Notes under the pieces: model-generated
Told to the model about the DNA's origin: nothing
Databases searched by the model: none
Seen by the model: only the letters and a program-made list of their open reading frames with translations
DNA from: Thermodesulfobacteriota bacterium
GTDB lineage: Bacteria; Desulfobacterota; WTBG01; JAGOGO01
Length of the DNA stretch: 64,000 bases
Reading direction: 5' to 3'
Assembly: GCA_026625185.1 (NCBI GenBank)
Contig: CP113000.1
Span: 2,043,124-2,107,123, forward strand
Shown: piece after piece, positions 22,093-64,000 of the stretch
How the letters are laid out: the number at the start of each line of letters is the position of its first letter
Numbering within the stretch: the first letter of the stretch is position 1
Translations under genes and position numbers: made by a program

Positions 22093-22105
22093 TTCGGGAG
22101 GAAGA

Positions 22106-45228: not shown

Positions 45229-45292
45229 GCCGTTATCTGTTGACCGTTTCCCGTTGGCTGTTATCCGTTCACCGTTGTTCGTTTAATTGAGT
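45229..45292 (-). repeat. Degenerate heptanucleotide array 3. It is in CCGTT orientation on the plus strand, so it reads NAACGGN on the minus strand.
   Basis: TTAGCCGTTATCTGTTGACCGTTTCCCGTTGGCTGTTATCCGTTCACCGTTGTTCGTTTAA. It lies between the microprotein stop and the start of the downstream membrane-protein gene. Confidence 0.6.
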
Positions 45293-45534: not shown

Positions 45535-45592
45535 GTATAACCGATAACGGCGAACGTTGAACGGTAAACGGAAAACGGTCAACGGACAACAA
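45535..45592 (+). repeat. Degenerate heptanucleotide array 4 (TAACGGC GAACGTT GAACGGT AAACGGA AAACGGT CAACGGA CAAC). It abuts the stop of the 45599..47122 gene.
   Basis: 7-bp periodicity. Inverted relative to array 3. Confidence 0.6.
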
Positions 45593-45598
45593 TTAATA

Positions 45599-47122
45599 TT
45601 ATTTTCTCACAAAAATAGTTCCCGCCTCATCCTCATAAACCTTCTTCCATCCCGGGCTGTCACCGATAAATTCAATAATTCTCTTGTTGTCTTTTTTACT
45701 GAGTACCACGAAAGAGATTTTGTATTTATCCAGGATTTTTTCCCAATCTCCCATGCCGAAGTGCACGTCGCTGCAGTCTTTCCAGATCTCTTCCGGGACC
45801 AGGTGCAGCCGGGTATCGGCGAATACCTTGTATTCCGGCCACAGTTTCCAGATCAGATAGCTTCCCCAGTTGATATCATTAAACATATTTCCCTTCAGGC
45901 CTTGTTTTTTTATATATTGCGCTATTGCCACCGGCTCGGATTTGGGATTAATAAAATTTCGCACGCTTTTGATGGGAAGATAAGGCCTGAACCAAGGGAG
46001 AAACGATATCGCGGTTATTAACAGAATAATGAAAAAGATGATGTTCAACGTCAGGCATTCGCTTTCGGTTTCTTCTTTTTTCCCCCCTGATATTTTTTGC
46101 CGCACCAGTTCTATCGAGCAAAAATGTGCGGCCAGGATCGGGGCGGAGACAATCCCCCACCACATGACCATTCGCTCCGCCTTAAAACCGACAAACAGAA
46201 AAACAAGAAGCAGCAAGGCTTCGGTAAAAGTAATTTTTCGTGTGCTGAATTTAAGGATGATGCCGGCAAGCACAACGGAGACAATAAAGCAATAGCCTAA
46301 ACCATCCTTCATGGCGGTCGGCTGCCATTCGGCGGAGCGTGCTGCCGAACTTGATGCGTTCACCCATACGTCTTCCCAGATGTTTATACCGTAAGGATTT
46401 ATTAAGGTGACCAGCGTCAGCATTATCAGCAAAAAAAGAAGCCGTCTCAATCTTGAATCTTTGGTCAGTCTCCTGAATCTTTCCTTTGCAGTAACAGAAT
46501 ATCCGGCTCTATTATAATATTCATCGGCTGCTCTTCCCACTAAAAAGATGCCGGCCAATATAATGGCAAGCGGGAAGCTGTTGTGAAGATTGACCCACAG
46601 TATCATTAACAGTGACAACAAAAGGATTAAAGAATTGCCTATTTTTTCTTTTTGAAAAAGCTGACGGTAGAAAAAGACAAACAGGGGGATGGTAAACAAC
46701 TGGGGACGCATATACCAGTTGGTAAATCCGAGGACCGCGGCAAACACTATAAAAAGGAGAGTGACCTTATAATGCTTCGTTAGAATTTGGATAAGGTGAT
46801 AAAAGATGGACATGGCCAGAAGCAAAAGGCCGACTCTCAGAATGATAAGCGATTCGAGGCTCCCCATTTTCTCGCAAACTGCAAGCGCTACCTGCGAAAG
46901 CCAGCCGGAATTGATATACTGGAGGCCAAAAAAGGTATGGGTAAAGAGGTCATGGCTGATAATAGCCCTTTTTTCGATCATTGCTTGGCCGAGTTTAAGG
47001 TAATAGCCAAGGTCATTGGAAATTACATCACCCCCCAGGCCCAAGATGGCGGTCAGCCAGAAAGGAAGGATATAATAAATAGTTTTAAGCCTGAAAAGGG
47101 GAGGTATCTGGTCGGTTTTCAT
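45599..47122 (-). CDS. Second large polytopic membrane protein, putative GT-C-fold glycosyltransferase
   Basis: At least 11 hydrophobic helices. It is preceded by the second microprotein-and-array unit. Confidence 0.4.
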   Translation of the reverse strand: MKTDQIPPLFRLKTIYYILPFWLTAILGLGGDVISNDLGYYLKLGQAMIEKRAIISHDLFTHTFFGLQYINSGWLSQVALAVCEKMGSLESLIILRVGLLLLAMSIFYHLIQILTKHYKVTLLFIVFAAVLGFTNWYMRPQLFTIPLFVFFYRQLFQKEKIGNSLILLLSLLMILWVNLHNSFPLAIILAGIFLVGRAADEYYNRAGYSVTAKERFRRLTKDSRLRRLLFLLIMLTLVTLINPYGINIWEDVWVNASSSAARSAEWQPTAMKDGLGYCFIVSVVLAGIILKFSTRKITFTEALLLLVFLFVGFKAERMVMWWGIVSAPILAAHFCSIELVRQKISGGKKEETESECLTLNIIFFIILLITAISFLPWFRPYLPIKSVRNFINPKSEPVAIAQYIKKQGLKGNMFNDINWGSYLIWKLWPEYKVFADTRLHLVPEEIWKDCSDVHFGMGDWEKILDKYKISFVVLSKKDNKRIIEFIGDSPGWKKVYEDEAGTIFVRK

Positions 47123-47139
47123 AGTAGTCGTTTACTGTG

Positions 47140-47200
47140 ATCCGTTAACCGTTATTTGTTGACCGTTTTCCGTTGGCAGTTATCGGTTCATCGTTGTTCG
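47140..47200 (-). repeat. Degenerate heptanucleotide array 5 (CCGTT orientation on the plus strand)
   Basis: TCCGTTAACCGTTATTTGTTGACCGTTTTCCGTTGGCAGTTATCGGTTCATCGTTGTTCG. It shares GTTGACCGTTTYCCGTT with array 3. Confidence 0.6.
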
Positions 47201-47299: not shown

Positions 47300-47467
47300 C
47301 GAAATCTCTAAAATTTTCCTTCATTGTTTTTCCTCTCGTCCCCATTTTTTTACCCCTCACCTAAATCCTCTCCCCGGCGGGGAGAGGAAGGAAAGGACGG
47401 AACACATTCATATGAGGAGCCAAGAGCAAGAAGAAAATTTAATTGCATCTATTAATTCCTTCCCTCC

Positions 47468-47540
47468 TATAACCGTTAACGGTGAATGGTTAACAGAAAA
47501 CGGTAAACAGATAACGGTTAACGGAGAACAAAGAACGTTT
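47468..47540 (+). repeat. Degenerate heptanucleotide array 6 (TAACCGT TAACGGT GAATGGT TAACAGA AAACGGT AAACAGA TAACGGT TAACGGA GAACAAA GAACG). It abuts the stop of the GT2 gene.
   Basis: 7-bp periodicity. Begins CTCCTATAACCG like arrays 1 and 4. Confidence 0.6.
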
Positions 47541-48694: not shown

Positions 48695-49663
48695 CTAACG
48701 TGTCTCCTTATAATTTTTTGCCCCATCACTCCTTTTAACCTGCGATATAATGTGTCATTGATAATATCACGGCTATGGCCATAAATACATCCCTGTTTGG
48801 AGGTGGAGCGACCGGGTGAAAAAATGCTATAGTAAAAAGTTGTTGATATTCTTAAAAAAATTACAATTAAAATTATATAAAATAACATAGTGGAAATTAT
48901 GAATAAAAAATAAAAGCTAATGTTAATTAGCCATTCAATTCTTTTATCGCATGCCGATAATTGTCCATAGTGTGCCAAAAATTTTCTTATTTTTTTAAAC
49001 AATTTTCTGCAAATTTTTTATTTGGGCAATTTTAAAAATAAATTTTGCAAAATAGTAAAGAAAAAAATCTAATATTTTACTTGAAATTAAACTTATTACG
49101 TATTATTATTTCAAAAAATTTCTTTTTTCAAAAAAATGGCTTTATCTTTTGGCATTATAGTTGCTTGGAAGTTGAATAAGTTCAGACAATATTGATCCTT
49201 AGGAAAAAGCCACACCAGTGGTGAGGCTGGGCCGGAAAGCCACGGGTCTTAATTAATCGAAAGATATCCGGGTTGCCAAAAAAGGTAACCGGCTATTTTT
49301 TGGTATTAATCCCCCTCACCTCAATCCTCTCCCCGGCGGGGAGAGGATTGAAAGATTTGAAGTCTATCCTGATGGGGAGAGGAAGGTAAAGTAAAAAATC
49401 CTCCAAAAGGGAGGGAAAGGCAACGTAGTAAAAGCTCTCCTCAAAGGAAGAGAAAGGGACTAAATAAGCAAGTAAATACTTTTTTGTAGTTATATAGATT
49501 AAATACCCTATTTACTAACTTGCTTCATTATGAAATAATTTTTTCAAATAACTTTTTTGAAAGGAGGAAAAGCCAAGAAAGAACATCAATAAATCATTAG
49601 AAACAAATGGGTTAAAATTTTTTTAAAACCTAATTGTTATTTTTTTATTAAAGGAGGTAACAG

Positions 49664-49837
49664 ATGGAAAAGTTAAAAAAATTTTTTAAAGAGGAGGAGG
49701 GCGTGACCGCACTTGAATACACAGTGCTCGCCGCACTTATAATTATCGTGATAATTATATTTTTTACCCCGATACGAAATGCCGTTAGTAAGATATGGTC
49801 AGAAATTAATAGTGCAATGACGGCTGCAACATCATAA
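49664..49837 (+). CDS. flp: Flp/Fap family type IVb pilin (57 aa, below the track cutoff)
   Basis: MEKLKKFFKEEEGVTALEYTVLAALIIIVIIIFF carries the Flp motif G-(V/A)-T-A-(I/L)-E-Y and a hydrophobic stretch. AAAGGAGG RBS is 6 nt upstream. Confidence 0.7.
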   Translation: MEKLKKFFKEEEGVTALEYTVLAALIIIVIIIFFTPIRNAVSKIWSEINSAMTAATS

Positions 49838-50013: not shown

Positions 50014-50547
50014 GTGATCAGTGATGTTTATCTGTCCACATTTTTAGCCATAATTCTTTTGATTGCGGCAATATACGACATTTGGGTTGCTAAAATTCCC
50101 AATGTGATCACGTTCTCCGGTATGATAACCGGCATTATATATCATGGGGCAGCTCAGGGTTTGAGCGGGGCCGGGCTGAGTATTGCCGGCCTGCTGGCAG
50201 GGAGCGCGGTATTTTTCCCTTTTTACCTGCTGAAAGGAATGGGAGCCGGGGATATAAAGCTGATGGGAGCGGTGGGCTCCTTAGTGGCCTGGAAAGGAAT
50301 AATCCCGGCTATTGTTTTTACCGCGCTGGCCGGAGGCATTTATGCGTTTGCGCTTATTTTTTGCAATCCCAGTACCTGCAAGAGATTGATCTTTGGATCA
50401 ATATCAATGTTTAAGACTCTTGCGCTGACCGGGCAGATTGTTCTTCCCTCCTTATTTGAAAAGGAGAAAAAGCCGCAGGTGCGTTATGGGGTGGCGATCG
50501 CCGCGGGAACTTTATTTTCGCAGTGGTGGTGGCCGCTGCTTAAGTAG
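50014..50547 (+). CDS. cpaA: Prepilin peptidase CpaA/TadV (A24 family)
   Basis: Polytopic protein with conserved catalytic Asp residues (IYDIWVAKIPN and GMGAGDIKLMGAVG). Confidence 0.7.
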   Translation: MISDVYLSTFLAIILLIAAIYDIWVAKIPNVITFSGMITGIIYHGAAQGLSGAGLSIAGLLAGSAVFFPFYLLKGMGAGDIKLMGAVGSLVAWKGIIPAIVFTALAGGIYAFALIFCNPSTCKRLIFGSISMFKTLALTGQIVLPSLFEKEKKPQVRYGVAIAAGTLFSQWWWPLLK

Positions 50548-50827
50548 TTTTGGGGAACGCTCATTAATTTCTCTCCAACCAAATTTTTCCTTTTACCACC
50601 CCTTTGAAAATGGGTAGAATTGGTTTATTTCTCTTTTTTAAAGTGGAAAATCAAGTTTTCCTCTTTAATTAATGGAAAAAAAACAAATTTTTCTTGAAAT
50701 TTTTCTTGAAATAAATAAAAAACATTGTAAAATATATTTCAAATTGCTTATTTTTATCCCATGAGAAAATTTTCTAACGGCTAAAGTAAAGAAAAATTCT
50801 CATCAGATAAAGAAAGGGGTGAATCTT

Positions 50828-51673
50828 ATGGAGAGATGGAAAGCATTTTTACCGATTCTGATAGCGGTGATTATTGCCTTGATCGGGGCTTTTGCGGCCA
50901 ACAAATGGCTAAAAAAGCAGGCGATTGTAAAGGGGAAACCAACCATTGGGGAAACCGCCCAGATTGCCGTGGCCAAGGTGGATTTGCCCTGGGGAACGAA
51001 GCTGACCTCTGAAGCCTTGACCTCCGCAAGGTTTATTAAAAATAGTTTGCCCACAGGCTATTTTACTGATCTTGCTGCTCTCAACAACCGGGTGCTTCTC
51101 AGTCCGGTTAGTAGGAATGAACCTATTTTAGAATCGCGATTAGCTCCGGTCAGCATTGCTACGGGCGGCGTTTCCGCGGTTATTCCGAGCGGCAAACGGG
51201 CGATAGCGGTCAAAGGCGACAAAGTCATCGGATTATCCGGACTGATCCAGCCTGGCAACCGGGTTGATGTTCTGTTCAGCATAACCAACCCGGAGACACA
51301 AACCGAGATCACCAAAATCGTGCTTCAGGATATTCTGGTGCTGGCCGCCAACACCCAAATAGAGAAAGGCAAGAAAGAAGGCGAAGCAGCTCCGGTGGAT
51401 GTTTATACCCTCGAGGTAACACCGGAAGATGGTGAGAAGCTTGCGCTCGCCGCTACCCAGGGAAGACTTCAGTTCGCTTTAAGAAACCCCATGGATTTGG
51501 AAATGGTGGTTACCAGAGGAGCGACCATACCGGATACGCTCGGTATGTTGTATATACCCGGCAACAAAAAAAGCCCGGAACCCATGGCAACAAGAGGCCC
51601 TTCCGCTGTCCATGAGTCCGAGGTTACCATTATTAACGGCTCTAAGGCAACGGTCGTTAAACATGCGCTGTAA
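50828..51673 (+). CDS. cpaB: Flp pilus assembly protein CpaB/RcpC
   Basis: N-terminal TM anchor, then SAF-like and RcpC beta-rich domains. Position between cpaA and the secretin. Confidence 0.65.
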   Translation: MERWKAFLPILIAVIIALIGAFAANKWLKKQAIVKGKPTIGETAQIAVAKVDLPWGTKLTSEALTSARFIKNSLPTGYFTDLAALNNRVLLSPVSRNEPILESRLAPVSIATGGVSAVIPSGKRAIAVKGDKVIGLSGLIQPGNRVDVLFSITNPETQTEITKIVLQDILVLAANTQIEKGKKEGEAAPVDVYTLEVTPEDGEKLALAATQGRLQFALRNPMDLEMVVTRGATIPDTLGMLYIPGNKKSPEPMATRGPSAVHESEVTIINGSKATVVKHAL

Positions 51674-51696: not shown

Positions 51697-51977
51697 CACC
51701 CTCACCCCGGCCCTCTCCCTCAAGGGAGAGGGAGTTTTGAATTGATTCTCTCCCTCAAGGGAGAGGGAGTTTTGAATTGATTCTCTCCCTCAAGGGAGAG
51801 TGGGGTGGTTGCTTCTCTCTCCATTAAGGGAAAAAATGTTTTTTGGTTTCTTCTCTCCGTTAAAGGGGAGATAGAAATTTTGGTTTGATTCTCTCCCTTA
51901 AGGGAGAAGGAAAATTTGGAGTGGATTTTGAAACGTTACCTCCTCTCCCCTGCGGGGAGAGGATTGAGGTGAGGGGG
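51697..51977 (+). repeat. Tandem array of about 7 hairpin units (about 36 bp each: CTCTCCCTCAAGGGAGAG plus GGAGTTTTGAATTGATT). It degenerates distally and ends with an inverted copy of the CCTCACC..GGGGAGAGGA element.
   Basis: The first three units are near-identical. Read directly in the sequence between cpaB and cpaC. Confidence 0.6.
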
Positions 51978-52046
51978 CTTATCGCATCTTATTTTTGCTC
52001 TGATTAATATGTTTCCCCCCCGTAAGAAGGCACGGGGTAAAAGAAA

Positions 52047-53477
52047 GTGAGGAGAAGAATGAGGCTTACAACCACGGCAATAATGAAAGGATATGGACTC
52101 GCTTTTGTTATTCTCGCTTTGTTGCTGACCCTCTCGGGCAGAGCATTTTCTCAAACCATTATCGTGCTGGGAGATAAAAAAACGACTAAGCTTGACCTGG
52201 TCGTCGGGAAATCAGTGATATTTAAAAGCTCTCAGGAAATAAAATCCGCCAGTATCGCTGACCCGGAGATCGCGGAATGCGTTTCTCTATCTCCCAGTGA
52301 AATTTACGTTGTTGCCAAAGCTCCCGGCGCGACCCGCCTTATTATTTCCCAGGCCGGAAAGGCGATGTTTACCTATGATTTAACTGTTGCCTACGATATC
52401 GCGGGGTTGAAGCAGAAGCTCAACGAGATGTTGCCGGACGAGAATAATATTCAGGTAACGGCCACGAATAAATCCCTTACCTTGAGCGGCCGGGTTTCGA
52501 GCACGGTCAAGCTTTCTCAAGCGCTCGCGATTGCTGAGGGCTTCGCTCCCAAGGGGGGAATCAATAATCTCCTTGAGGTCGCCGGAGTACATCAGGTGAT
52601 GCTGGAAGTGCGGGTGGCGGAGATGTCAAAGAGTTTAGGTCAAAAGCTGGGTTTTAATTTTGCTTACACCAACGGGCAAGACTTCGCCCTTACCCATTTG
52701 GCACAACTTACTTCCTTCGATTCCGCGACCGCAGGCGGGCCATTGGGCATTGCGGTCTCTTCCGCGGTTAACGCCCTTTTTCGTTTTAAGAAGGGCAACT
52801 CCACCTGGACCAATTTTATTGACGCCTTAAAAGAAGACGGCTTGGTCCACGTTCTGGCGGAGCCGACCCTGATCGCTTTAAGCGGCCAGTCAGCAAACTT
52901 TCTCGCCGGAGGGGAGTTTCCGATCCCGGTTCCCCAGGGACTCGGAACGGTCGGCATTGAATATAAATCATTCGGCGTCGGCCTTACCTTCACGCCGATT
53001 GTTCTCGATGATAAAAAGATTAATATAAAGGTGTCCCCTGAGGTTTCACAGTTGGATTATTCCATCGGTATCAATATAATAGAAGGACTTCCAGTTCCCG
53101 GAATAACCACCCGGAGGGCCTCGACCACCGTAGAGCTGGGGGACGGCCAGAGCTTTGGTATTGCCGGCCTTCTGCAAGATAGCACGCGCAACGCTATTTC
53201 CAAGTATCCGTTCCTCGGAGAGATGCCGGTGCTGGGAGCTTTGTTCCGCAGCAGCGACTATCAAAGAAGTGAGACGGAGCTGATCATTATTGTTACACCG
53301 CATATTGTAAAGCCCCTTGATATGGCCAAACAGTCTTTGCCGACCGATTATTATGTGGAGCCGAACGCGTGGGAGTTTTACGGCCTGGGTCTCCTGGAAG
53401 GAAGGAGCAAGCCTTTGTCTCCGGTCGCAACCGGTGAGCTCGATGGAGAGTTCGGGCACGCGGTGCCTATGCCGTAG
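52047..53477 (+). CDS. cpaC: Tad/Flp pilus secretin CpaC/RcpA
   Basis: Signal peptide, BON-like N-domain, secretin domain (VHVLAEPTLIALSGQSANFLAGGEFPIPV..GVGLTFTP). Confidence 0.8.
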   Translation: MRRRMRLTTTAIMKGYGLAFVILALLLTLSGRAFSQTIIVLGDKKTTKLDLVVGKSVIFKSSQEIKSASIADPEIAECVSLSPSEIYVVAKAPGATRLIISQAGKAMFTYDLTVAYDIAGLKQKLNEMLPDENNIQVTATNKSLTLSGRVSSTVKLSQALAIAEGFAPKGGINNLLEVAGVHQVMLEVRVAEMSKSLGQKLGFNFAYTNGQDFALTHLAQLTSFDSATAGGPLGIAVSSAVNALFRFKKGNSTWTNFIDALKEDGLVHVLAEPTLIALSGQSANFLAGGEFPIPVPQGLGTVGIEYKSFGVGLTFTPIVLDDKKINIKVSPEVSQLDYSIGINIIEGLPVPGITTRRASTTVELGDGQSFGIAGLLQDSTRNAISKYPFLGEMPVLGALFRSSDYQRSETELIIIVTPHIVKPLDMAKQSLPTDYYVEPNAWEFYGLGLLEGRSKPLSPVATGELDGEFGHAVPMP

Positions 53478-53667
53478 GGGAAAAAGGAAGGGGATTTTCT
53501 CCTCACCCTGTCCCTCTCCCCCGAGGGGGAGAGGGGAGCTACTTTAAAAATAATCCTCCCCTTTGGTAAAGGGGAGTTAGAGGAAATTTTAACGTAAGAA
53601 TGAAACGTGACCTCAATCACGTTGTCGGATTTAATAGAATCGGCGACAAATTGTAACAAAAACGGCG

Positions 53668-53867
53668 ACAAATTAATGAAATCGGGCACAATTTCCCAGG
53701 GGTATTTTTCAGGCAACACAAAACCTGTCTGATTTTTGACTTCAAAATCAGCAGGTATTTTATCCCCACAAATTAATGAAATCGGGCACAATTTCCCAGG
53801 GGTATTTTTCAGGCAACACAAAACCTGTCTGATTTTTGACTTCAAAATCAGCAGGTATTTTATCCCC
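53668..53867 (+). repeat. Perfect 2 x 100-bp tandem direct duplication. Each unit contains the hairpin CTGATTTTTGACTTCAAAATCAG.
   Basis: Units 53668..53767 and 53768..53867 appear identical by eye. They are preceded by the partial related motif CGGCGACAAATT (twice). Confidence 0.7.
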
Positions 53868-53938
53868 AAAATTCTTATGGCCGAAGCCGATTTTTCCCCT
53901 AAAAAAACAAATTCATTAAGGCATAAAAACCTTCTTTT

Positions 53939-54697
53939 TTAAAAATTACTAATTAACAATTCTTTCCCTTCGCTGTGATTACCCCTATTTAGAGTATAAA
54001 TTGTCGATACCGGCTTAATTTTAAATCCTTTAAATATTTCCCTGATCTCCTGCGCATCATTGATACTCAGAACGAATTGCGCTTTGATTTTGGCCAGCTT
54101 ATCCGCCATCTCTTTATAATCAGGCAGTTCCATATTAAACTTATACCAGGGAGCCTTCCAATAGGGCGGATCGAGATAAAAAAAGGCCTCAGCACGATCA
54201 TAACAAACCAAAAATTTCTGGTACGGGAGATTTTCAATCGTAACCTGAGACAACCTCAAATGGACTTCTGATAACTCCTCTTCCAGCCGAAGCAGATTAA
54301 TCCCGGGTCTATGCAAGGGTCTCATCCCAAAGTTTCTACCCACCACCTTTGCGCTGAACGCGTGCCGCTGGAGATAATAATAATGGGCTGCTCGTTGGAT
54401 ATCAGTCAAACCCCCGGCAACTTGCTGCCGCTTAAAATCCTCGAACCATTCTCTCGATGATAAAATCCATTTAAATTGTTTTAAAAACTCCTCTAAATGA
54501 TGCTGTAATACACGGTAAAAGCAAATCAGATCGCTATCCAGATCATTGATAACTTCAAATTTAGAGGGTTCTTTGCGAAAAAATACCCACGCTGCCCCGG
54601 CAAAGACCTCACAGTACATTTTGTGCTCCGGGATCATCTCAATTATTGTTTTTGCCAGCTTACTTTTGCCGCCGATGTACGCTAATGGACTGTCCAC
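53939..54697 (-). CDS. dam: DNA adenine methyltransferase (Dam-like, D12 class N6-adenine MTase)
   Basis: YIGGKSKLA (motif X/I AdoMet-binding region), FAGAAWVFF, and catalytic DPPY (FYLDPPYW). Confidence 0.85.
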   Translation of the reverse strand: MDSPLAYIGGKSKLAKTIIEMIPEHKMYCEVFAGAAWVFFRKEPSKFEVINDLDSDLICFYRVLQHHLEEFLKQFKWILSSREWFEDFKRQQVAGGLTDIQRAAHYYYLQRHAFSAKVVGRNFGMRPLHRPGINLLRLEEELSEVHLRLSQVTIENLPYQKFLVCYDRAEAFFYLDPPYWKAPWYKFNMELPDYKEMADKLAKIKAQFVLSINDAQEIREIFKGFKIKPVSTIYTLNRGNHSEGKELLISNF

Positions 54698-54857
54698 TGG
54701 ACACCTCCTTGTGCAGAAAAATAACTTGTGTTATTATTCCCACACCATCTTTTCTCATCCCGATGGTGGAGAGTTTCCGCATTATGCGGACTGCGCTGGG
54801 TGGTGCCAGTGCGGCGGTGGCAGAGATCCATCACAATCTCTGCCCCGAACTTTCCTT

Positions 54858-55289
54858 TTATTTTAATGATTGATCTGATTGAGTTATAGTGGCCTGCGGC
54901 GTCGAAACCAATGGTGCAGGAGTCGCAACCGTCTGAGAATCCGGTATCACTGGAGCGGTTGCGGGAACGCCTTGAGTCTTAGCTGCCACTGCGCCATAAG
55001 CTGCCGCCGCATTCAAGATATTGGTCATAAAACCGCTCAACTGTGTGCTTGTGTCGGCATTATACGTGCCGAGTAAATCACTCCAGGTTATTACCTGGTT
55101 TACAAAAGGCGGTTTTTTGGCCGTTATATCCATTTTTGCAATCACTATTTTCCCCGTACTATCGTACTGTTCTTTGTGGATGGTCATGGTGGTACACCCA
55201 CTTGAAAAAATCAACCCCCAAACAACCAAAACAGTAATAAAATAAACACAAAACAGTTCGAACTCAAAATAATAGAATATTTTTTTCAT
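54858..55289 (-). CDS. Hypothetical secreted or lipoprotein with a Thr/Pro/Ala-rich C-terminus
   Basis: N-terminal hydrophobic helix plus SSGC lipobox-like motif. Confidence 0.3.
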   Translation of the reverse strand: MKKIFYYFEFELFCVYFITVLVVWGLIFSSGCTTMTIHKEQYDSTGKIVIAKMDITAKKPPFVNQVITWSDLLGTYNADTSTQLSGFMTNILNAAAAYGAVAAKTQGVPATAPVIPDSQTVATPAPLVSTPQATITQSDQSLK

Positions 55290-55301
55290 GCGAACTCCTT
55301 T

Positions 55302-55808
55302 CTATTTGAGCCGTACCGGCTCGTTTAAAACATCCCATTTGGCGATATCGCCCGGCCGGGGAGCGGTTTTACCTTCCACCAGCCCGGCGGCTCGATACGC
55401 CAGAAAAACAAACTCGCTGCAAAAATACCTCGTGCAATCCGCCGAGACCCGGCCAAAAATATTTTTAATTACCGAGCCAAAATCATACGGCGTGCCGACC
55501 TGATCAAGCGCCCAGGTGACGATTTGTTCACGCGCGCCACAATATTCTTTTTTGAGCGGCAGCCACCAGGCTTCACCGTCATATTTTTTAACCCTCCACG
55601 ATAAAATACGCAGCTCAATGCCTGACGCGTTGGCTTCAAGAATAAACCGGCGATCGGTCAAGCCTTTAAACTCTTCCAGCCGGATCACCAGCGAAGCGTG
55701 GCTGTAACCGCCGTAAAGCCGGATCAGGCGCGAGATCGCTCCCGTGCCCTTCCAGAGGATCACGTCTCCGGACTTGATAGCCTCACGATGTTGAGAATAA
55801 TTATTCAT
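55302..55808 (-). CDS. Permuted papain-fold (NlpC/P60 superfamily, YiiX-like) amidase, putative phage cell-wall hydrolase
   Basis: The His-containing segment (GDVILWKG..YSHASLVI) precedes the Cys segment (GTPYDF..DCTRYFCSEFV). This is the circularly permuted order. Confidence 0.45.
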   Translation of the reverse strand: MNNYSQHREAIKSGDVILWKGTGAISRLIRLYGGYSHASLVIRLEEFKGLTDRRFILEANASGIELRILSWRVKKYDGEAWWLPLKKEYCGAREQIVTWALDQVGTPYDFGSVIKNIFGRVSADCTRYFCSEFVFLAYRAAGLVEGKTAPRPGDIAKWDVLNEPVRLK

Positions 55809-56188
55809 CAGCTCGGGTCCCTGATCTCCAATATATCAAATGGATTAAGAGGACATTCTACTTCATCTATCACCGGGATATTACAGGTGCTGATTGCCTT
55901 AATCTCCGAATTTACCGAATCAGAAATTACCACATGTGTTGCCGTGTTTGTCCCGGTCCCCGTAATCGTCTGTGCCGCAACTGTCAGCTTTCTTCCACTT
56001 GTATCCCCATCGCCGATAGTATAGTCACCGTTACCGTCTCCGGTGGTCAGCGTTACTTGGCCGAGAGAAACCGCGGCTATTCCGGCATAGTTAGCAGGCT
56101 GGGCAGAACAGAGGTCGAGCTTATTACCATTGTCGGCAATGTCCGCCAATAGTAAGTCTTTTTCATCATCGGGTATTAATTTCCCCAT
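55808..56188 (-). CDS. Hypothetical Gly/Thr-rich protein (phage structural?)
   Basis: No recognised family. Lies within the tail module. Confidence 0.25.
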   Translation of the reverse strand: MGKLIPDDEKDLLLADIADNGNKLDLCSAQPANYAGIAAVSLGQVTLTTGDGNGDYTIGDGDTSGRKLTVAAQTITGTGTNTATHVVISDSVNSEIKAISTCNIPVIDEVECPLNPFDILEIRDPS

Positions 56189-56197
56189 TTTTTCTCC

Positions 56198-56716
56198 TTA
56201 TCTAAATAATATAATTCTTAGTTTAAATGGCTTAGGTTCATAAATTCCTTGAGTATTTTTCTGTCTCATCCCAGTAGCGTAAGGGACCGGTAGGTTCATT
56301 ACCTGAATGCCTAATTGAAGTTGAATTATTCTACCGCCTATTTGCGTGGTAGATTTACCGACCAATTTGTCCAGTATGTCATTTCCTAAATCATTTTTTA
56401 ATTGCACTTTCCAGCCATAGCAACCATCAACTGCCACTTCTACTTGAGAAATGTATTCACAGAATGTCCACATGGCAGTATCAACCCACTCCAAAAGAAC
56501 AGGACTATCTATCTTCTTAACCACATCGGCAGCAGAAATATTAAGAGTCCCATTTGCGTCAGGTACACAATCCCACTGTAAGCATGTCTGAGTTGGTTCT
56601 GTACCTATCATGTCAGCAGTCCTTGACCAGTAGACGGAAAGCTCCGCTGTTCCTGCTGCAAAAGTTCGTAACGCAAAAAGAAAAACGAAAACTAAAGAGA
56701 AAAATATTTTTTTCAT
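56198..56716 (-). CDS. Hypothetical secreted protein
   Basis: N-terminal signal peptide (MKKIFFSLVFVFLFALRTFAAG). Confidence 0.3.
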   Translation of the reverse strand: MKKIFFSLVFVFLFALRTFAAGTAELSVYWSRTADMIGTEPTQTCLQWDCVPDANGTLNISAADVVKKIDSPVLLEWVDTAMWTFCEYISQVEVAVDGCYGWKVQLKNDLGNDILDKLVGKSTTQIGGRIIQLQLGIQVMNLPVPYATGMRQKNTQGIYEPKPFKLRIILFR

Positions 56717-56725
56717 AAAACCCTC

Positions 56726-59110
56726 CTAAAAAACTAAAAACATTAAATAATCACCGCCACTTACTTTAGTGACAACATCACAAATCAACTCACAGATAAT
56801 TTCATCGACATTATAAATTGAGCTGGTTACCTCATCACAAACCGGCTGAATAACCATTTCATCGACGTCATTGCCGACCGAGTAGATACTATCCTTCTCA
56901 ATTTTGGGCTGACCCCATGTCCAAGTATTATTGGATGATGCTCTGGTTTTATTAAATGTGAGCATGTAAAAGTGCCCACCGAATAAAAACACCATCGGCC
57001 AAGGGCTGGTATCCGGGTCGCCGTCAAAGGTGGCGACTAAAGTAGAGATCAAAAGATTCATTCCAACATCATAGACCAATGAACTATTAGCCTTATAGGT
57101 TTGAGCGATAATCCAAAAAGTACCGTCAAAATTTTGTAGACATGTTCCCTCTGCCCTGTTATTGGTATCAATGCTAATTGAGGTAAACGAACTTAAATCT
57201 GTTGAATAAGCCAAGGCAGGCCGTTGGCTCCCTCCAGAATCCCAAGTGGTGTATGCAATTAACCATCGGGAATTTGCGCTATCGTAGGCGGACATGAGAT
57301 CGAAGGCGCCGGCCCCTCCGCTGGTTGTCGGAAGGCTTAGGGCAGACAATCCACTAACCACATTCGTGCCGGAAAGGATATCTCCGGTAGTAAATAGTTT
57401 ATGGTCAGCGGTGATTGTGGTTAAAAGTCCGTCACCCCATCGTGAAATAAACAGCCTCCTGTCACCATTGTTATGCCTTATAATATGGGCTGCATGGTCG
57501 TTCATGATTTTGCTACTTCGAGAAACCATAATTACAGCCAATTGGGTAATGGTATAGTCACCGAGATCAAGAGAGAAAACTCCGCAATATCCAGAAGGTG
57601 TGGTTTGAGATGTAAAAGAATCATAATATGACCCTGCTGGGTCAGAAGCAGTGGCAGTAAAAAGAATGGTGGTTCCATCTATATAAGGCGTACCGTCTTC
57701 ATTTGTGACAACCCGCGTATCTCTAAGCCCGACTCCCCCAAACCTGCCACATTTGAAATTTGAAAAAGCAATAGTGGATGTCCCACTGGTTTTTAAGGCA
57801 AAAAATCCCGCCATGTAGCCCGACAACGCAGTTGATCCTCTTAAATCTGTTGTCGAAGAAGCCTGTTTGCAAGCATACGTCCATCCCGATCCGGAATCGT
57901 ACCATGCACACAATGAATTCCCCACAATACTCAATCCGATTTTAAACGGAGGAGTTAATGTTATGCTGAAAGAGGCTGTCCCTGAAGAACCACTTCCCCC
58001 AAATTTCCATGTTATATGGACGTAAGTGTTATCGCTTTCATAAACAACTTTCACAAAGTTATCTGCATCCTTAATCAAAACAACCCCGGCTCGCCAGTTG
58101 GCGGAATCTCCTGAAAATGAGTCGATTTGAGCTTCTATAAATGCCTGCGGCATCGAAAAAGAACTGGTATTTTCTGCTACATAATCGCTTTGTGGTGATC
58201 CCGAAGTGGTCTGTGCAATGGTAAATTTATTGTTTGCAATAGACGTGGAACCAGCATTGTTTTCGGTAAATTTAGTGAATTGTCCGTTATCGGCGGAAAA
58301 GTTTTCAGAAAAATCATTCAAACCTGAGGGATCTGGGTCAAAATAAGTAGGAGACCCAACTACAGAAAGATTCATTGCGGTAGGAATATACCCAATCCCG
58401 GAAAATGTTCCTCCCCGAATTGCATCTATCTCAGCTATTACTAAATTTCGGTTAAACAAAACCAACTCATCAACCAGTACGGGAACGGAATTTGGGCTAT
58501 CCGTGGGATCGCAACCGATATAAAAAGAATTGCTTGACCGGACGGTAAGGGTATTGGAAAAAGTATGAGTGTAAGTTGTAGCGGTTTGAGCGGTATCATC
58601 CCAAATACGCACGACCATCTTTTTGGTTACCCCATCGAGTACCAATCCAACATGATACCACCGTCCTGTGCTTAAGGTAGCCACCACCCATTCTTCCTGT
58701 TGTTGAACGGTTCCATATCCCCAAGCGACCCTAAACTGAGTGGTCGAATTTTTAAACCCCACAAAGAGGCAACTCCCAACTCCATTCCATTCAGCATTCC
58801 CGAAAAGAAGTGGATAACCGGAGGGCGTTCCGCTGAGATAAAACCAGCAACACCCCGAAAATCTCTTTACCGTATCGCCACTTTTAAGCGGGAACCCGGC
58901 GCATTGATTTGCGCTGGAAATTGAAAGTCTATTTTTTGCAGCCGTATCATTAAGTTTGGCAGAATCTGAACCTTCCTTATAGCTGGTTGTAGAATTAACC
59001 ACCCCGGTATTTGATAGCGTGTTCGTGCTTATGGAATCTACGGTAAGGGCCCCGTTTTCCATGCGCCAAAGAGCCTTACAAAAAATATCCTGAGAAAAAT
59101 CGTTACCCAC
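56726..59110 (-). CDS. Large tail-fiber/receptor-binding-like protein with a LamG/ConA-like lectin domain
   Basis: 794 aa, Ser/Thr/Gly/Asn-rich beta composition. The N-terminal region is LamG-like (LVDELVLFNRNL). It lies adjacent to the host-specificity protein. Confidence 0.45.
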   Translation of the reverse strand: MGNDFSQDIFCKALWRMENGALTVDSISTNTLSNTGVVNSTTSYKEGSDSAKLNDTAAKNRLSISSANQCAGFPLKSGDTVKRFSGCCWFYLSGTPSGYPLLFGNAEWNGVGSCLFVGFKNSTTQFRVAWGYGTVQQQEEWVVATLSTGRWYHVGLVLDGVTKKMVVRIWDDTAQTATTYTHTFSNTLTVRSSNSFYIGCDPTDSPNSVPVLVDELVLFNRNLVIAEIDAIRGGTFSGIGYIPTAMNLSVVGSPTYFDPDPSGLNDFSENFSADNGQFTKFTENNAGSTSIANNKFTIAQTTSGSPQSDYVAENTSSFSMPQAFIEAQIDSFSGDSANWRAGVVLIKDADNFVKVVYESDNTYVHITWKFGGSGSSGTASFSITLTPPFKIGLSIVGNSLCAWYDSGSGWTYACKQASSTTDLRGSTALSGYMAGFFALKTSGTSTIAFSNFKCGRFGGVGLRDTRVVTNEDGTPYIDGTTILFTATASDPAGSYYDSFTSQTTPSGYCGVFSLDLGDYTITQLAVIMVSRSSKIMNDHAAHIIRHNNGDRRLFISRWGDGLLTTITADHKLFTTGDILSGTNVVSGLSALSLPTTSGGAGAFDLMSAYDSANSRWLIAYTTWDSGGSQRPALAYSTDLSSFTSISIDTNNRAEGTCLQNFDGTFWIIAQTYKANSSLVYDVGMNLLISTLVATFDGDPDTSPWPMVFLFGGHFYMLTFNKTRASSNNTWTWGQPKIEKDSIYSVGNDVDEMVIQPVCDEVTSSIYNVDEIICELICDVVTKVSGGDYLMFLVF

Positions 59111-59112
59111 GG

Positions 59113-59766
59113 TTAATACCCTTTATTGATCGCCACAAAATCATATTTTGAGTCCGTTCCGTTATAGACGTAACCGAGACGGTCAAGTTTATTCGCCCCG
59201 GATGATAATGTCGGCGGTGACGGCAGGTCGTCACTGCCGCGCACCTCAGCGCCGAATGTGACCGTCCGTCCTCCAGTGGCATCCTGTTTTAAAAGAAGTT
59301 GGCATTTTTGCCCATCAGCCGCGCCGGAAAAAGTAAAGGCTACCGTCGCCCGGTCGAAGGTCATTTTGCCGATCCCGCCGAGAGACCAGTCAATGGTGAC
59401 ATTGTCGGCGCAGGTAATTGTCTGCACGACTTTTTCCGGATGTTTTAGTTTCCACGCGCTGCCATTGTAATTAATTTCAACATCCTCATCCTGCACGAAT
59501 GCCCGCCAACCCTCTGCCGGTAAAAGAAAAATCCAGCCGTTATCGTAAATCGCCACGTAATTTTCTTTCCCGGCCCATGCTCCGGTGGCAGTGGCCTTGG
59601 GGATATATACCTGGCCATTGCTGGGGCTGCCCGGAGGAGCCGTTAAATCGCGGTCAATCACACATATCTGTGCCATGACTGCCAGCCGGTGATTTGCCTG
59701 GTTGTGGGTTAAATATTTCGAGGCCTGGCTTTCGACCATGTCGGTTATTTGCAAAAAATCGGTCAT
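59113..59766 (-). CDS. DUF2793-like phage tail-associated protein
   Basis: The pattern LTAPPGSPSNGQVYIP..ATGAWAGKENYVAIYDNGWIFLLPAEGWRAFVQDE is recalled as characteristic of DUF2793 proteins found in GTA/prophage tail clusters. From memory only. Confidence 0.4.
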   Translation of the reverse strand: MTDFLQITDMVESQASKYLTHNQANHRLAVMAQICVIDRDLTAPPGSPSNGQVYIPKATATGAWAGKENYVAIYDNGWIFLLPAEGWRAFVQDEDVEINYNGSAWKLKHPEKVVQTITCADNVTIDWSLGGIGKMTFDRATVAFTFSGAADGQKCQLLLKQDATGGRTVTFGAEVRGSDDLPSPPTLSSGANKLDRLGYVYNGTDSKYDFVAINKGY

Positions 59767-59822
59767 AATAAACTCATAAATAAAATGTTAGCGGTTTAAC
59801 CGGTTTAAACAGTTCAAGCGGT

Positions 59823-63197: not shown

Positions 63198-63203
63198 GTA
63201 AAA

Positions 63204-64000
63204 TTAGTCCTCTGCATCCGGAGATTGATTTATAACGCTTTCGGGAGGCACAAACGGCTCACCCCTAAAATTTATTACATTGTCGTATTTATCTTCACAG
63301 GTGCTCACTTTTTTATCACATCCGGGATAGGCCTCGTAGGTATCGCCGATTTGAATCGTTTTCGGCATCGCGAGGAATAGAGTAAACGTTGTCGTACTTA
63401 AACCCCAATCTTTAACCTCCATTGACAGCCCGGCGTTATCACCCGTGAGCCAATGAATATAACCGTAATTAAAATAATCGTTAGCCTCGGTGCGAGAACT
63501 GTCGGCAAATACCCGGTTGTCCGTCACGCCGGTCACCGCGCCGGTGACTTTGAGGGCAGTCAGATTAACGCCGCACCGGGAATCACCCAGATCCGCCCGG
63601 CATTCCGCGCTGTATGCCTCGCACATTTTTTTGGAAAAATAATCCGTCATGCTGGTGATGGAGGCGGTATATTTACCTTGTTCTATTTTAACCTTTCCGA
63701 ACCGCCCGCGCCGCAGCTTGATGATCCCCATGCCGGTGTTCATGAAGTTGATCAGGAATAACCAGATCTCGGCGTAGTCGTATTTGCCCTCGCGCAAATC
63801 GTTCTCCAAAACCCCATCTCCCTCATCAAATAATAATCCTTCCAAATCAACTTGGTCAGGATTCATTTGGGAGGTTGTTGAAATGGCCGTACGGTCTCCG
63901 CCGGTAGCCGCTTCATAGGTCACGCCGTCATAAACAATGTCTTTATCGTTCGAGGTAAAACCGAGAGTTACCCCGTCCTGCCGGGTGATTTTCCAACAGA
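63204..64000 (-). CDS. DUF2163 (BR0599/TIGR02218-like, RcGTA g13 N-domain-like) phage protein. The 5' end is outside the window.
   Basis: The C-terminus YPGCDKKVSTCEDKYDNVINFRGEPFVP matches the family hallmark GC..K....C..K..N..NF.GFP..P. The reading frame stays open to the window edge (..WKITRQDGVTLGFTSNDKDIVYDGVTYEA). Confidence 0.6.
   Translation of the reverse strand, partial: CWKITRQDGVTLGFTSNDKDIVYDGVTYEAATGGDRTAISTTSQMNPDQVDLEGLLFDEGDGVLENDLREGKYDYAEIWLFLINFMNTGMGIIKLRRGRFGKVKIEQGKYTASITSMTDYFSKKMCEAYSAECRADLGDSRCGVNLTALKVTGAVTGVTDNRVFADSSRTEANDYFNYGYIHWLTGDNAGLSMEVKDWGLSTTTFTLFLAMPKTIQIGDTYEAYPGCDKKVSTCEDKYDNVINFRGEPFVPPESVINQSPDAED

What the first reader, a model, noticed from the sequence alone, without database searches (positions are those of the whole stretch)
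51697..51977. Tandem array of about seven 36-bp hairpin units inside the Tad operon between cpaB and cpaC
Three near-perfect units (CTCTCCCTCAAGGGAGAG plus GGAGTTTTGAATTGATT) are followed by four progressively degenerate units. The array is capped by an inverted CCTCACC element and occupies almost the entire 370-bp cpaB-cpaC intergenic gap.

Repeat plus spacer superficially resembles a CRISPR array. However, the spacers are themselves repeated and no cas genes are present, so I reject a CRISPR call.

A run of stable hairpins within a polycistronic pilus operon could set the stoichiometry of the upstream pilin and assembly genes against the secretin. It could do so by partial termination or differential mRNA decay. 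Alternatively it is a hotspot for slippage.
Basis: seen in the sequence. Interest (0 to 1): 0.5.

Follow-up and report, generated by a model that had tools for sequence, protein, structure and literature searches.

The report
Amplified BoxC-type hairpin repeat cluster
The hairpin array between the pilus genes cpaB and cpaC is real, but it is a species-specific insertion of a long-known, widespread intergenic repeat (the BoxC / PIT / "triplex motif" element of E. coli) whose palindromic core has been copied in tandem, not a conserved control element of the pilus operon.

Summary
There are seven pyrimidine-first hairpins at 51713-51963. Two and a half 35-bp units are 100% identical. CCCTCACCC (51699) and GGTGAGGG (51968) bracket the array inside the 385-nt cpaB-cpaC gap.

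The left end (51699-51732, minus strand) matches exactly the published TMECO/BoxC/PIT pattern CCCTCNCCC-N3-6-GGGNGAGGG-N3-GGGNGAGGG. It also hits 4418 of 5426 complete E. coli genomes. The right end (51942-51976) is a register-shifted copy in the opposite orientation. Three more copies lie in neighbouring intergenic regions (47353, 49312, 53501).

So the array is an inverted pair of these elements with the shared hairpin plus a 17-nt spacer amplified between them. Six related loci (CpaC 71-88% identical) have only 25-192 nt here and no such elements, so this is a recent insertion upstream of an intact, conserved cpaC leader.

The same capped architecture recurs in many phyla (Enterobacter, Ectothiorhodospira, Dehalococcoidia, Planctomycetota and others), each with its own spacer.

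Most likely it is selfish or structural repeat DNA that grew by slippage between the directly repeated palindromic hairpins. Any effect on cpaB/cpaC mRNA would be incidental and is untested. It is a new variant of a known kind, of moderate to low interest.

The parts
51699..51732 (-). Left cap plus first hairpin. This is a complete BoxC/PIT/TMECO element, type B (CCG second loop): CCCTCTCCC-TTGA-GGGAGAGGG-CCG-GGGTGAGGG.
   Evidence: Exact match to the published pattern CCCTCNCCC-N3-6-GGGNGAGGG-N3-GGGNGAGGG, with 0 matches expected in shuffles (pattern from PMC4666352). A 51-nt query around it hits 4418 of 5426 E. coli genomes at 80-99% identity.
51713..51800 (.). Three identical hairpins (CTCTCCCTCAAGGGAGAG) separated by two identical 17-nt spacers (GGAGTTTTGAATTGATT). 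This is the recently amplified part of the array.
   Evidence: TRF gives period 35, 2.5 copies, 100% matches. Fold energies are -12 to -19 kcal/mol.
51801..51816 (+). G-rich tail after hairpin 3 (TGGGGTGGTTGCTTCT). It may be a decayed third-strand block closing a first sub-array.
Evidence: Inverted repeat I2 pairs 51704-51730 with 51783-51809 (27 nt, 78% complementary).
51817..51940 (.). Three decayed hairpin-plus-spacer units (units 4-6), at 60-87% identity to the perfect unit. The hairpin of unit 4 is lost.
   Evidence: A unit HMM searched with nhmmer hits 51805-51835, 51842-51871 and 51879-51908 and nothing significant elsewhere in the window.
51942..51976 (+). Right cap plus seventh hairpin. 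This is a register-shifted element in the opposite orientation: CCTCTCCCC-TGC-GGGGAGAGG-ATTGA-GGTGAGGGG.
   Evidence: Pattern search. Fold energy is -20.1 kcal/mol. It is inverted relative to 51699-51726.
52010..52058 (+). Ancestral cpaC leader: a small hairpin, the Shine-Dalgarno region and AAAGAAAGTGAGGAGAAGAATG. The insertion left it intact.
   Evidence: Alignment with five related loci; the last ~25 nt are invariant.
50828..51673 (+). cpaB (RcpC/CpaB, SAF domain), the gene upstream of the array.
   Evidence: Pfam PF16976 and PF08666. An identical protein was found on 7 contigs.
52059..53477 (+). cpaC (secretin), the gene downstream of the array.
   Evidence: Pfam PF00263, PF13629 and PF04972. 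NCBI name: type II and III secretion system protein family protein, from a Thermodesulfobacteriota MAG.
47353..47387 (-). Dispersed copy of the register-shifted element, in the intergenic region upstream of the glycosyltransferase gene.
   Evidence: Fold energy is -21.5 kcal/mol.
49312..49454 (-). Dispersed copy (49312-49346), followed by three or four decayed hairpins. It lies between the c-di-GMP riboswitch and the flp pilin gene.
   Evidence: Fold energy is -26.2 kcal/mol.
53499..53576 (-). Dispersed, slightly degenerate copy (53499-53535; third block GGGTGAGGAG) plus a second hairpin (53556-53576), just after the cpaC stop. Orthologous copies exist in relatives.
   Evidence: L009 and L115 carry the same elements after cpaC.

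Best explanation
The array is a cluster of BoxC / PIT / TMECO-type intergenic repeats. Each full element is a pyrimidine block, its complementary purine block (together a hairpin) and a third G-rich block that mirrors the purine block.

Here two such elements lie in opposite orientation with their third blocks facing outward: C3 block, hairpin ... hairpin, G3 block. Because the hairpin is palindromic, such an inverted pair contains two direct repeats of the ~18-bp hairpin sequence.

Replication slippage or unequal recombination between these direct repeats adds or removes 'hairpin + spacer' units but never the caps. That yields exactly what is seen: one cap at each end, n hairpins, and n-1 spacers that are alike within the array. 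Older units (4-6) have decayed, and the units next to the left cap were duplicated or homogenised very recently.

The whole block is an insertion specific to this Thermodesulfobacteriota species. It sits between the cpaB stop codon and the intact ancestral cpaC leader. It most likely has no selected role in the pilus operon.

If cpaB and cpaC are co-transcribed, the RNA carries six stable hairpins. These could incidentally slow 3'-5' decay of the upstream message or cause some termination at units 1-2.

Shown: identity of the elements, their dispersal, absence from relatives, and recurrence of the architecture elsewhere. Inferred: the slippage mechanism, the lack of selected function, and any RNA effect.
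For: **Identity.**
- 51699-51732 (minus strand) matches the published TMECO pattern exactly.
- It is found at 80-99% identity in 4418 of 5426 E. coli genomes, with a median of 6 places per genome.
- Three register-shifted copies and one degenerate copy lie at 47353, 49312, 51942 and 53499.
- In every copy the third block mirrors the purine block with only an A-to-T change, as the purine triplex motif requires (read from the sequence).

**Dispersal.** All 12 strong pyrimidine-first hairpins of the window lie in intergenic DNA between 47.3 and 53.6 kb.

**Insertion.**
- Relatives with CpaC 88, 84, 84, 77, 74 and 71% identical have cpaB-cpaC gaps of 192, 56, 25, 31, 40 and 25 nt with no such element.
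- The last ~50 nt before cpaC are conserved.

**Amplification.**
- 2.5 units are 100% identical, next to units at 60-87%.
- The duplicated segment starts and ends inside the hairpin (read from the sequence).
- The unit HMM hits only this array in the window.

**General architecture.**
- A scan of one genome per species found at least 100 stretches with two such hairpins 14-22 nt apart.
- 98 of 103 spacers lack a third block.
- Of 133 arrays, 91 have at least one outward cap, 34 have both, and only 1 has an inward cap.
- About 15 arrays have a regular 30-40 bp period and 92-100% unit identity.
- Examples are L071, L038, L101, L066, L040, L082 and L073 (Enterobacter, with the identical 21-nt hairpin).

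**Literature.**
- These elements are intergenic and sometimes occur in inverted A+B pairs.
- They showed no promoter or terminator activity.
- They mark regions of raised genomic variability, including partial deletions that leave a hairpin (PMC4666352).
Against: - No copy-number difference was observed. The three complete assemblies carry identical arrays, but they are ~99.99% identical in the flanks, so the test is weak.
- In some genomes the same spacer occurs at several loci (Kolteria, Hyphomicrobium, Rhodomicrobium). In Dehalococcoidia the whole capped element is repeated. So multi-hairpin units can also spread as blocks, and in-situ slippage may not be the whole story.
- The five elements cluster within 6 kb and are absent from the other 58 kb of the window. 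Simple random dispersal does not explain that.
- Units 1 and 2 are followed by AGTTTTG, and a loose scan flags them as terminator-like, so an RNA-level effect cannot be dismissed.
- The cpaB-to-cpaC orientation means the array would be transcribed if the two genes share a transcript.
Confidence: 0.65

Rival explanations
1. The array is a selected cis-acting RNA element. The run of hairpins in the cpaB-cpaC intercistronic RNA attenuates transcription into cpaC and/or protects the upstream flp-cpaA-cpaB message from 3'-5' exonucleases, setting the ratio of upstream products to secretin. This would resemble REP/BIME sequences in E. coli operons such as malEFG (from established knowledge).
For: - It lies between co-directional genes of one gene cluster.
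- Six of the seven hairpins are stable.
- Units 1 and 2 are flagged as terminator-like: a 9-bp stem followed by AGTTTTGAAT.
- The plus strand folds better than its shuffles, z = -4.4.
Against: - It is absent from all six related Tad loci.
- Units 4-6 are decaying, with no compensatory changes.
- The minus strand folds even better (z = -7.5), as expected for DNA palindromes rather than a strand-specific RNA.
- Spacers of equivalent arrays in other genomes have no T-run.
- PIT/TMECO elements had no terminator or promoter activity in E. coli (cited in PMC4666352).
- There is no Rfam family at gathering score.
- A promoter-like site upstream of cpaB (50706-50733) and the intact cpaC leader suggest expression does not depend on the array.
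Confidence: 0.15
2. The block is a MITE-like composite that arrived as a unit. The two oppositely oriented cap elements act as terminal inverted repeats of a non-autonomous mobile element that already carried several hairpin units. An unidentified enzyme moved it, and little or no in-situ amplification occurred.
For: - The terminal arms are 28 nt long and 75% complementary.
- The insertion is absent from relatives.
- In other genomes, hairpin-spacer-hairpin blocks with the same spacer occur at several loci and in both orientations (L057/L088, L020/L035/L046/L083, L082).
- In Dehalococcoidia the whole capped element is itself repeated.
Against: - The unit with this spacer occurs nowhere else in the 64-kb window.
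- It gave no hit in the metagenome collection.
- No target-site duplication could be identified, because the left junction is not alignable with relatives.
- No transposase was found among the 30 larger ORFs scanned.
- Holder et al. found no association with mobile elements.
- Only 1 hit was found in 2.9 million viral contigs.
- The 100% identity of units 1-3 next to decayed units points to at least one local duplication.
Confidence: 0.15
3. The array is a DNA-level functional site. It binds a nucleoid or recombination protein, or forms non-B DNA (an intrastrand purine triplex or G-quadruplex at the caps, cruciforms at the hairpins), and this modulates supercoiling or replication locally.
For: - The caps obey the triplex triad rule and match sequences shown to form a triplex in vitro as single strands (PMC4666352).
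- The G-rich strand of the left cap has four G3 tracts (sequence; bioRxiv 10.1101/032615).
- The hairpin and cap sequences are strikingly conserved across phyla.
Against: - In vivo footprinting and double-stranded CD/NMR gave no evidence of triplex formation.
- The interior units lack a third block, so they can form only hairpins.
- No binding protein is known.
Confidence: 0.05

Closest known systems
BoxC / PIT (potential intrastrand triplex) / TMECO elements of E. coli and other Proteobacteria (Bachellier et al. 1990s; Hoyne et al. 2000; Holder et al. 2015, PMC4666352)
   Same: - The left cap plus hairpin matches the published pattern exactly, including the type-B CCG loop.
- It is intergenic and present in several copies.
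- It occurs as an inverted pair: a type-B element with a type-A-like element (TTGA/TTA loop).
- It is linked to a locally rearranged region (an insertion relative to relatives, with a prophage junction 150 nt beyond the next copy).
   Different: - In E. coli the pairs lie less than 50 nt apart with the G-rich third blocks facing inward. Here they are 209 nt apart with the third blocks outward.
- The hairpin core plus a spacer is tandemly amplified between them.
- Three of the five copies are shifted by one base in register and have a 5-nt second loop, so they fail the strict pattern.
- The host is a Thermodesulfobacteriota MAG.
- Tandem hairpin-core arrays are not described in the papers I could read.
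BIMEs (clusters of REP/PU palindromes) of enterobacteria
   Same: Both are arrays of short GC-rich palindromic units separated by short conserved linkers. Both lie in intergenic DNA, often inside operons. Copy number is variable. Known incidental effects on mRNA stability and attenuation come from established knowledge.
   Different: - The sequence family is unrelated.
- REP units alternate in orientation and are tied to RAYT (Y1 transposase) genes. Here no such gene was seen in the window.
- Because the unit here is palindromic, orientation is undefined except at the caps.
Rfam RF01762 Whalefall-1 RNA motif (Weinberg et al. 2010, PMC2864571)
   Same: Its consensus is UCUCUCC-loop-GGAGAGA, about 24 nt, then AGGGUGAGGAC. 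That is the same hairpin plus GGGTGAGG block. The copy at 53499-53535 (minus strand) aligns to it.
   Different: The score is 21.7 bits against a gathering score of 37, and the array itself scores 15.6 or less. It is not a member. The resemblance suggests that the motif may itself belong to the BoxC-like world, which I did not test.
MITEs
   Same: Short, non-coding, with imperfect terminal inverted repeats, present or absent between close relatives, and forming a family of copies.
   Different: No target-site duplication was identified and no partner transposase is known. The interior is a tandem repeat.
CRISPR arrays
   Same: Regularly spaced palindromic repeats with a period of about 35 bp.
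   Different: The spacers are copies of one another, there are only about 7 units and they are decaying, there is no leader, and no cas gene is in the window.

Membership tests
BoxC / PIT / TMECO intrastrand triplex motif | Sequence pattern 5'-CCCTCNCCC N3-6 GGGNGAGGG N3 GGGNGAGGG-3' (Holder et al. 2015) | tested here: met
   There is one exact match, at 51699-51732 on the minus strand, with 0 expected in shuffles. The copies at 47353, 49312 and 51942 fit a one-base-shifted variant with a 5-nt second loop and do not meet the strict pattern.
BoxC / PIT / TMECO intrastrand triplex motif | The third block mirrors the purine block, so that G*G-C, A*A-T and T*A-T triads are possible | tested here: met
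   Read from the sequences. GGGAGAGGG against reversed GGGTGAGGG, and GGGGAGAGG against reversed GGTGAGGGG, each differ only by one A-to-T change. The copy at 53499 has one further mismatch.
BoxC / PIT / TMECO intrastrand triplex motif | Always intergenic, with several dispersed copies per genome | tested here: met
   There are five copies, all between ORFs with Pfam support. The genome-wide number could not be obtained.
BoxC / PIT / TMECO intrastrand triplex motif | DNA-level similarity to the E. coli copies | tested here: met
   Window 51690-51740 matches 4418 of 5426 complete E. coli genomes, with a median of 6 places and 80-99% identity, all unannotated.
BoxC / PIT / TMECO intrastrand triplex motif | Forms an intrastrand triplex as a single-stranded oligonucleotide in vitro | not testable with these tools
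   This needs CD, NMR or UV melting. Only the sequence rule could be checked.
BoxC / PIT / TMECO intrastrand triplex motif | Interior units of the array are also full three-block elements | tested here: not met
   Units 2-6 have the hairpin but an AT-rich spacer instead of a third block. Only the two ends are full elements.
CRISPR array | Unique spacers between identical repeats, with cas genes or a leader nearby | tested here: not met
   Spacers 1 and 2 are identical and the others are related. There are no cas domains in the 30 larger ORFs of the window.
Intrinsic (Rho-independent) terminator | GC-rich hairpin immediately followed by a run of U | tested here: inconclusive
   Units 1 and 2 pass a loose scan (9-bp stem, tail AGTTTTGAAT), but the region yields 16 such sites against 9.7 expected. 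The U-run is only 4 long and is offset by 2 nt. The other units have no such tail.
REP / BIME | REP consensus palindromes in alternating orientation, associated with a RAYT transposase | tested here: not met
   The sequence is unrelated. No Y1 transposase is among the ORFs scanned. The whole genome was not searched.
Rfam Whalefall-1 (RF01762) | Score at or above the curated gathering threshold (37 bits) | tested here: not met
   21.7 bits at 53499-53535 (minus strand), and 15.6 bits or less within the array.
MITE | Terminal inverted repeats plus a target-site duplication | tested here: inconclusive
   The arms are 28 nt long and 75% complementary. The left junction cannot be aligned with relatives, so a duplication could not be assessed.

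The most novel reading that the evidence does not exclude
Capped hairpin arrays (C3 block, then n copies of hairpin + spacer, then G3 block) may be the footprint of an undescribed, cross-phylum amplification or mobilisation system. Such a system would recognise the CCCTCTCCC/GGGAGAGGG hairpin and use the adjacent GGGTGAGGG block as a guide, in the way RAYT transposases act on REPs. It would explain why a 21-nt hairpin is identical in an Enterobacter and a Thermodesulfobacteriota genome. Insertions into operons such as this Tad cluster would then be a general way of rewiring operon expression.
Probability: 0.1. Interest if true: 0.7.

Novelty: new variant of a known kind. Interest (0 to 1): 0.33.

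Why it matters
For the pilus operon it matters little. The array is a lineage-specific insertion that leaves the cpaC start region intact, and no conserved regulatory role is indicated.

The wider point is about the repeat family. BoxC/PIT/triplex-motif elements have been known since the 1990s without a function or a mode of spread, and the strict TMECO pattern was reported in 262 proteobacterial genomes.

The scan here shows the same hairpin and caps in Chloroflexota, Planctomycetota and many other groups. It also shows a recurrent 'capped array' form in which only the palindromic core and a lineage-specific spacer are amplified.

This gives a concrete, testable model for how these elements generate the local instability already reported for them: slippage between hairpins that are direct repeats because they are palindromes.

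It also flags them as a cause of contig breaks and spurious small ORFs in metagenome assemblies.

Tried and rejected
- **CRISPR.** Rejected: the spacers are repeated and no cas genes were found.
- **Known RNA families.** The only gathering-level Rfam hit in the window is the c-di-GMP-I riboswitch at 49199-49280. Sensitive searches of the array gave only sub-threshold, mostly microRNA-like chance hits. wcaG scored 24.1 against a threshold of 42, and whalefall-1 scored 15.6 or less.
- **Other copies of this particular unit.** A metagenome scan for spacer tail plus hairpin found 0 stretches, so that collection evidently lacks this genome. nhmmer with a unit HMM found nothing significant outside the array. 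That also undercut my by-eye impression of a decayed unit in the cpaA-cpaB gap, which I dropped.
- **Copy-number variation.** The only complete copies come from near-identical strains and are the same. The three broken short-read contigs are uninformative about number.
- **E. coli as a test bed for array variation.** Only the cap of the Enterobacter array matches E. coli. The hairpin-spacer array part does not occur there.
- **Phage association.** There was one hit among the viral contigs, so I did not pursue it.
- **CsrA/RsmA sponge RNA (tandem GGA hairpins).** Rejected on sequence: the GGA motifs are locked in the strong stems, not in loops.
- **Target-site duplication.** It could not be assessed, because the cpaB 3' end and the left junction do not align with relatives.
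- **Coding potential.** JGI calls a 40-aa ORF at window 51885-52007. It has no domain, lies across units 6-7, and is taken as spurious.

Full report
**1. The observation**

Tandem Repeats Finder reports 51713-51800 as 2.5 copies of a 35-bp unit at 100% identity (score 176). It also reports a looser array, 51713-51919, with 5.8 copies at 74%.

In register there are seven copies of a hairpin core, at 51713, 51748, 51783, 51817, 51853, 51891 and 51943. Their spacings are 35, 35, 34, 36, 38 and 52 nt. The core 18-mer with up to three mismatches is found 10 times, against 0.03 expected.

Taken singly, units 1-3 and 7 fold at -12 to -20 kcal/mol and units 5-6 at about -10. Unit 4 has lost its stem, at -2.2. 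The ends carry CCCTCACCC (51699) and GGTGAGGG (51968), which form part of a 28-nt, 75% complementary inverted repeat.

The flanking genes are a CpaB/RcpC protein (50828-51673) and a CpaC secretin (52059-53477). A prepilin peptidase (50014-50547) and an Flp pilin (49664-49837) lie upstream.

Three corrections are needed:
- The gap is 385 nt and the array fills 72% of it.
- Only two full units plus a third hairpin are perfect.
- The seventh hairpin is not a decayed unit. It is a strong, separate element.

The 385-nt gap is identical in three other assemblies (two JGI metagenomes and NCBI GCA_029216075.1), so it is not an assembly artefact. Three short-read contigs end or begin inside the perfect units, as expected for an unresolved repeat.

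**2. What the ends are**

A search of the window for the cap and hairpin showed the same combination at three further intergenic sites: CCTCACC, about six bases, then CCTCTCCCC-loop-GGGGAGAGG. These sites are 47353-47387, 49312-49346 and 53499-53535.

A full-text search for the two nonamers led to Holder et al. 2015 (PMC4666352). These authors define the E. coli 'TMECO' motif, earlier called BoxC and PIT. The pattern is 5'-CCCTCNCCC N3-6 GGGNGAGGG N3 GGGNGAGGG-3'. It consists of a hairpin plus a third G-rich block that could fold back as a purine-motif triplex.

The minus strand of 51699-51732 reads CCCTCTCCC-TTGA-GGGAGAGGG-CCG-GGGTGAGGG. It meets this pattern exactly and is their type B. A 51-nt query around it finds 28,331 places in 4418 of 5426 complete E. 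coli genomes at 80-99% identity, none of them annotated.

The copies at 47353, 49312 and 51942 are the same design shifted by one base, with a 5-nt second loop. In all of them the third block mirrors the purine block apart from one A-to-T change, as the triplex rule requires.

The array is therefore bracketed by two such elements in opposite orientation: a type B on the left and a type-A-like one on the right. Holder et al. note that the inverted pairs in E. coli always combine a type A with a type B. Here, however, the third blocks face outward and the two elements lie 209 nt apart.

**3. What the interior is**

Units 2-6 have the hairpin but no third block. Each hairpin is followed by an AT-rich spacer related to GGAGTTTTGAATTGATT.

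The perfectly repeated segment starts and ends inside the hairpin sequence. A profile of spacer tail plus hairpin finds only this array in the window and nothing in the metagenome collection.

Because the hairpin is a palindrome, two oppositely oriented elements contain two direct repeats of about 18 bp. Misalignment between them duplicates or deletes 'hairpin + spacer' and leaves the caps single. This is my inference. It accounts for:
- one cap at each end;
- n hairpins and n-1 related spacers;
- identical young units next to decayed old ones.

**4. Comparison with relatives**

CpaC homologues at 88, 84, 84, 77, 74 and 71% identity were traced to their contigs. Their cpaB-cpaC gaps are 192, 56, 25, 31, 40 and 25 nt, and none contains a cap or a hairpin of this type.

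The last ~50 nt before cpaC in the window are homologous to the short gaps of the relatives. This stretch holds a small hairpin and AAAGAAAGTGAGGAGAAGAATG. The array is therefore an insertion between the cpaB stop and an intact cpaC leader.

The family itself is older in the lineage. Two relatives carry orthologous copies just after cpaC.

In the window, all 12 strong pyrimidine-first hairpins lie between 47.3 and 53.6 kb, and none lies in the other 58 kb. I cannot explain this clustering.

**5. The same architecture elsewhere**

I scanned one genome per species for two such hairpins 14-22 nt apart. The scan returned 100 stretches (very likely a cap on the output) from many groups:
- Alpha-, Beta- and Gammaproteobacteria, including Enterobacter, Pseudomonas and Ectothiorhodospira;
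- Desulfobacteraceae and Geobacter;
- Dehalococcoidia and other Chloroflexota;
- Planctomycetota, Elusimicrobia, Ignavibacteriota, Rokubacteria and Victivallales.

The statistics on these loci are:
- In 98 of 103 cases the spacer holds no third block.
- Of 133 arrays of two or more hairpins, 91 have at least one outward cap, 34 have both, and only one has an inward cap.
- About fifteen arrays have a regular 30-40-bp period with 92-100% identity between successive units.

Arrays of 4-8 units with the window's layout occur in Dehalococcoidia (L066, L040), a gammaproteobacterial MAG (L071), Ectothiorhodospira marina (L038), L101, Kolteria novifilia (L082, two loci) and Enterobacter sp. Cy-643 (L073). 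The Enterobacter hairpin, CTCTCCCTCAAGGGAGAGGGA, is identical to the window's.

Spacers differ between lineages but are sometimes shared by several loci of one genome. In one Dehalococcoidia chromosome the whole capped element is itself repeated. Blocks can therefore also spread as units.

Only one hit was found in 2.9 million viral contigs. This agrees with the earlier report of no link to phages or transposons.

**6. Function**

Nothing supports a selected role in the operon:
- The insertion is absent from relatives.
- Its units are decaying without compensatory changes.
- The minus strand folds better than the sense strand (z = -7.5 against -4.4).
- No RNA family matches at threshold.
- Work cited by Holder et al. 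found no promoter or terminator activity for these elements in E. coli, and no stable triplex in vivo.

Holder et al. do show raised sequence variability around the elements, including partial deletions of inverted pairs that leave a hairpin. That fits the slippage model.

An incidental RNA effect remains possible. Units 1 and 2 are followed by AGUUUUG and pass a loose terminator scan. From established knowledge of REP sequences, stable intercistronic hairpins can protect upstream mRNA. This needs transcript data.

**7. Verdict**

The thing is a BoxC/PIT/TMECO-type repeat cluster: an outward-facing inverted pair with an amplified hairpin core. It was inserted recently into the cpaB-cpaC gap of a Thermodesulfobacteriota genome.

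It belongs to a known kind. The capped-array form, and its occurrence well beyond Proteobacteria, are not described in the papers I could search, so I rate it a new variant of a known kind.

Confidence by claim:
- Identity of the elements: about 0.9.
- The slippage origin combined with no selected function: about 0.65.

Interest is moderate to low for the operon, and somewhat higher for people who study bacterial repeats.

Noticed in passing
window 49199-49300: A c-di-GMP-I riboswitch aptamer (56.6 bits against a gathering score of 35), with a terminator-like hairpin and T-run at 49271-49300, lies upstream of the Flp pilin gene (49664-49837). A BoxC-type element and decayed hairpins sit between them. 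No riboswitch reached threshold in the related loci L011, L114, L113 and L010.
   Followed up: partly
window 53478-64000: The Tad cluster stops after cpaC. Homologues of the relatives' downstream genes (orf102, tadE, tadG, cpaE, cpaF, tadB, tadC) are absent from the whole window. Similarity to relatives ends near 53626. After that come a Dam-type methyltransferase (53939-54697, minus strand) and phage tail genes running to the window end. A prophage or island appears to have split the operon.
   Followed up: partly
window 53668-53873: A 100-bp tandem repeat has 2.1 copies at 99% identity in the window, but one copy fewer in the other assemblies (L001, L002, L004-L006). The prophage part is 98.9-99.3% identical between assemblies, against 99.99% for the chromosomal part.
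   Followed up: partly
window 45230-45277, 45546-45590, 47129-47188, 47469-47530: Runs of 7-nt periodic AACGGT/ACCGTT-type repeats lie in the intergenic regions on both sides of an unannotated 507-aa gene (45599-47122, minus strand). Related CCGTTAG/CTAACGG hairpins sit upstream of cpaB and cpaC in relatives. They may be regulator binding sites.
   Followed up: no
window 12960-15659: Two ORFs of a molybdopterin oxidoreductase (formate dehydrogenase alpha type) are joined in frame by a TGA at 14016-14018, in the context CARL-TGA-HSS. This is most likely a selenocysteine codon.
   Followed up: partly
window 21985-22093: A 49-bp AT-rich tandem repeat (2.2 copies, 83% identity) lies in an intergenic region upstream of a hydrogenase-related gene cluster.
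   Followed up: no
L073 1240-1500 (Enterobacter sp. Cy-643, NZ_VWWV01000003.1): At least five tandem 40-bp units have the hairpin CTCTCCCTCAAGGGAGAGGGA, identical to the window's. The array ends in a type-A TMECO element. Only the cap, not the array, occurs in E. coli.
   Followed up: partly
L022 40-420 and 5020-5450 (Dehalococcoidia chromosome OZ244908.1): The whole capped element (CCCTCACC, hairpin, 15-nt spacer, hairpin, GGTGAGGG; about 90 nt) is repeated three times in tandem at two loci. Its caps are identical to E. coli type A elements, in a Chloroflexota genome.
   Followed up: no
window 53499-53535 (minus strand): There is a sub-threshold match to Rfam Whalefall-1 (21.7 bits against 37). 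That family's consensus is a UCUCUCC/GGAGAGA hairpin followed by AGGGUGAGGAC, so the environmental 'RNA motif' may itself be a BoxC-like DNA repeat.
   Followed up: no
window 51885-52007: The JGI annotation calls a 40-aa gene across units 6-7 of the array. It has no domain. It looks like one of the spurious ORFs that these repeats generate.
   Followed up: no
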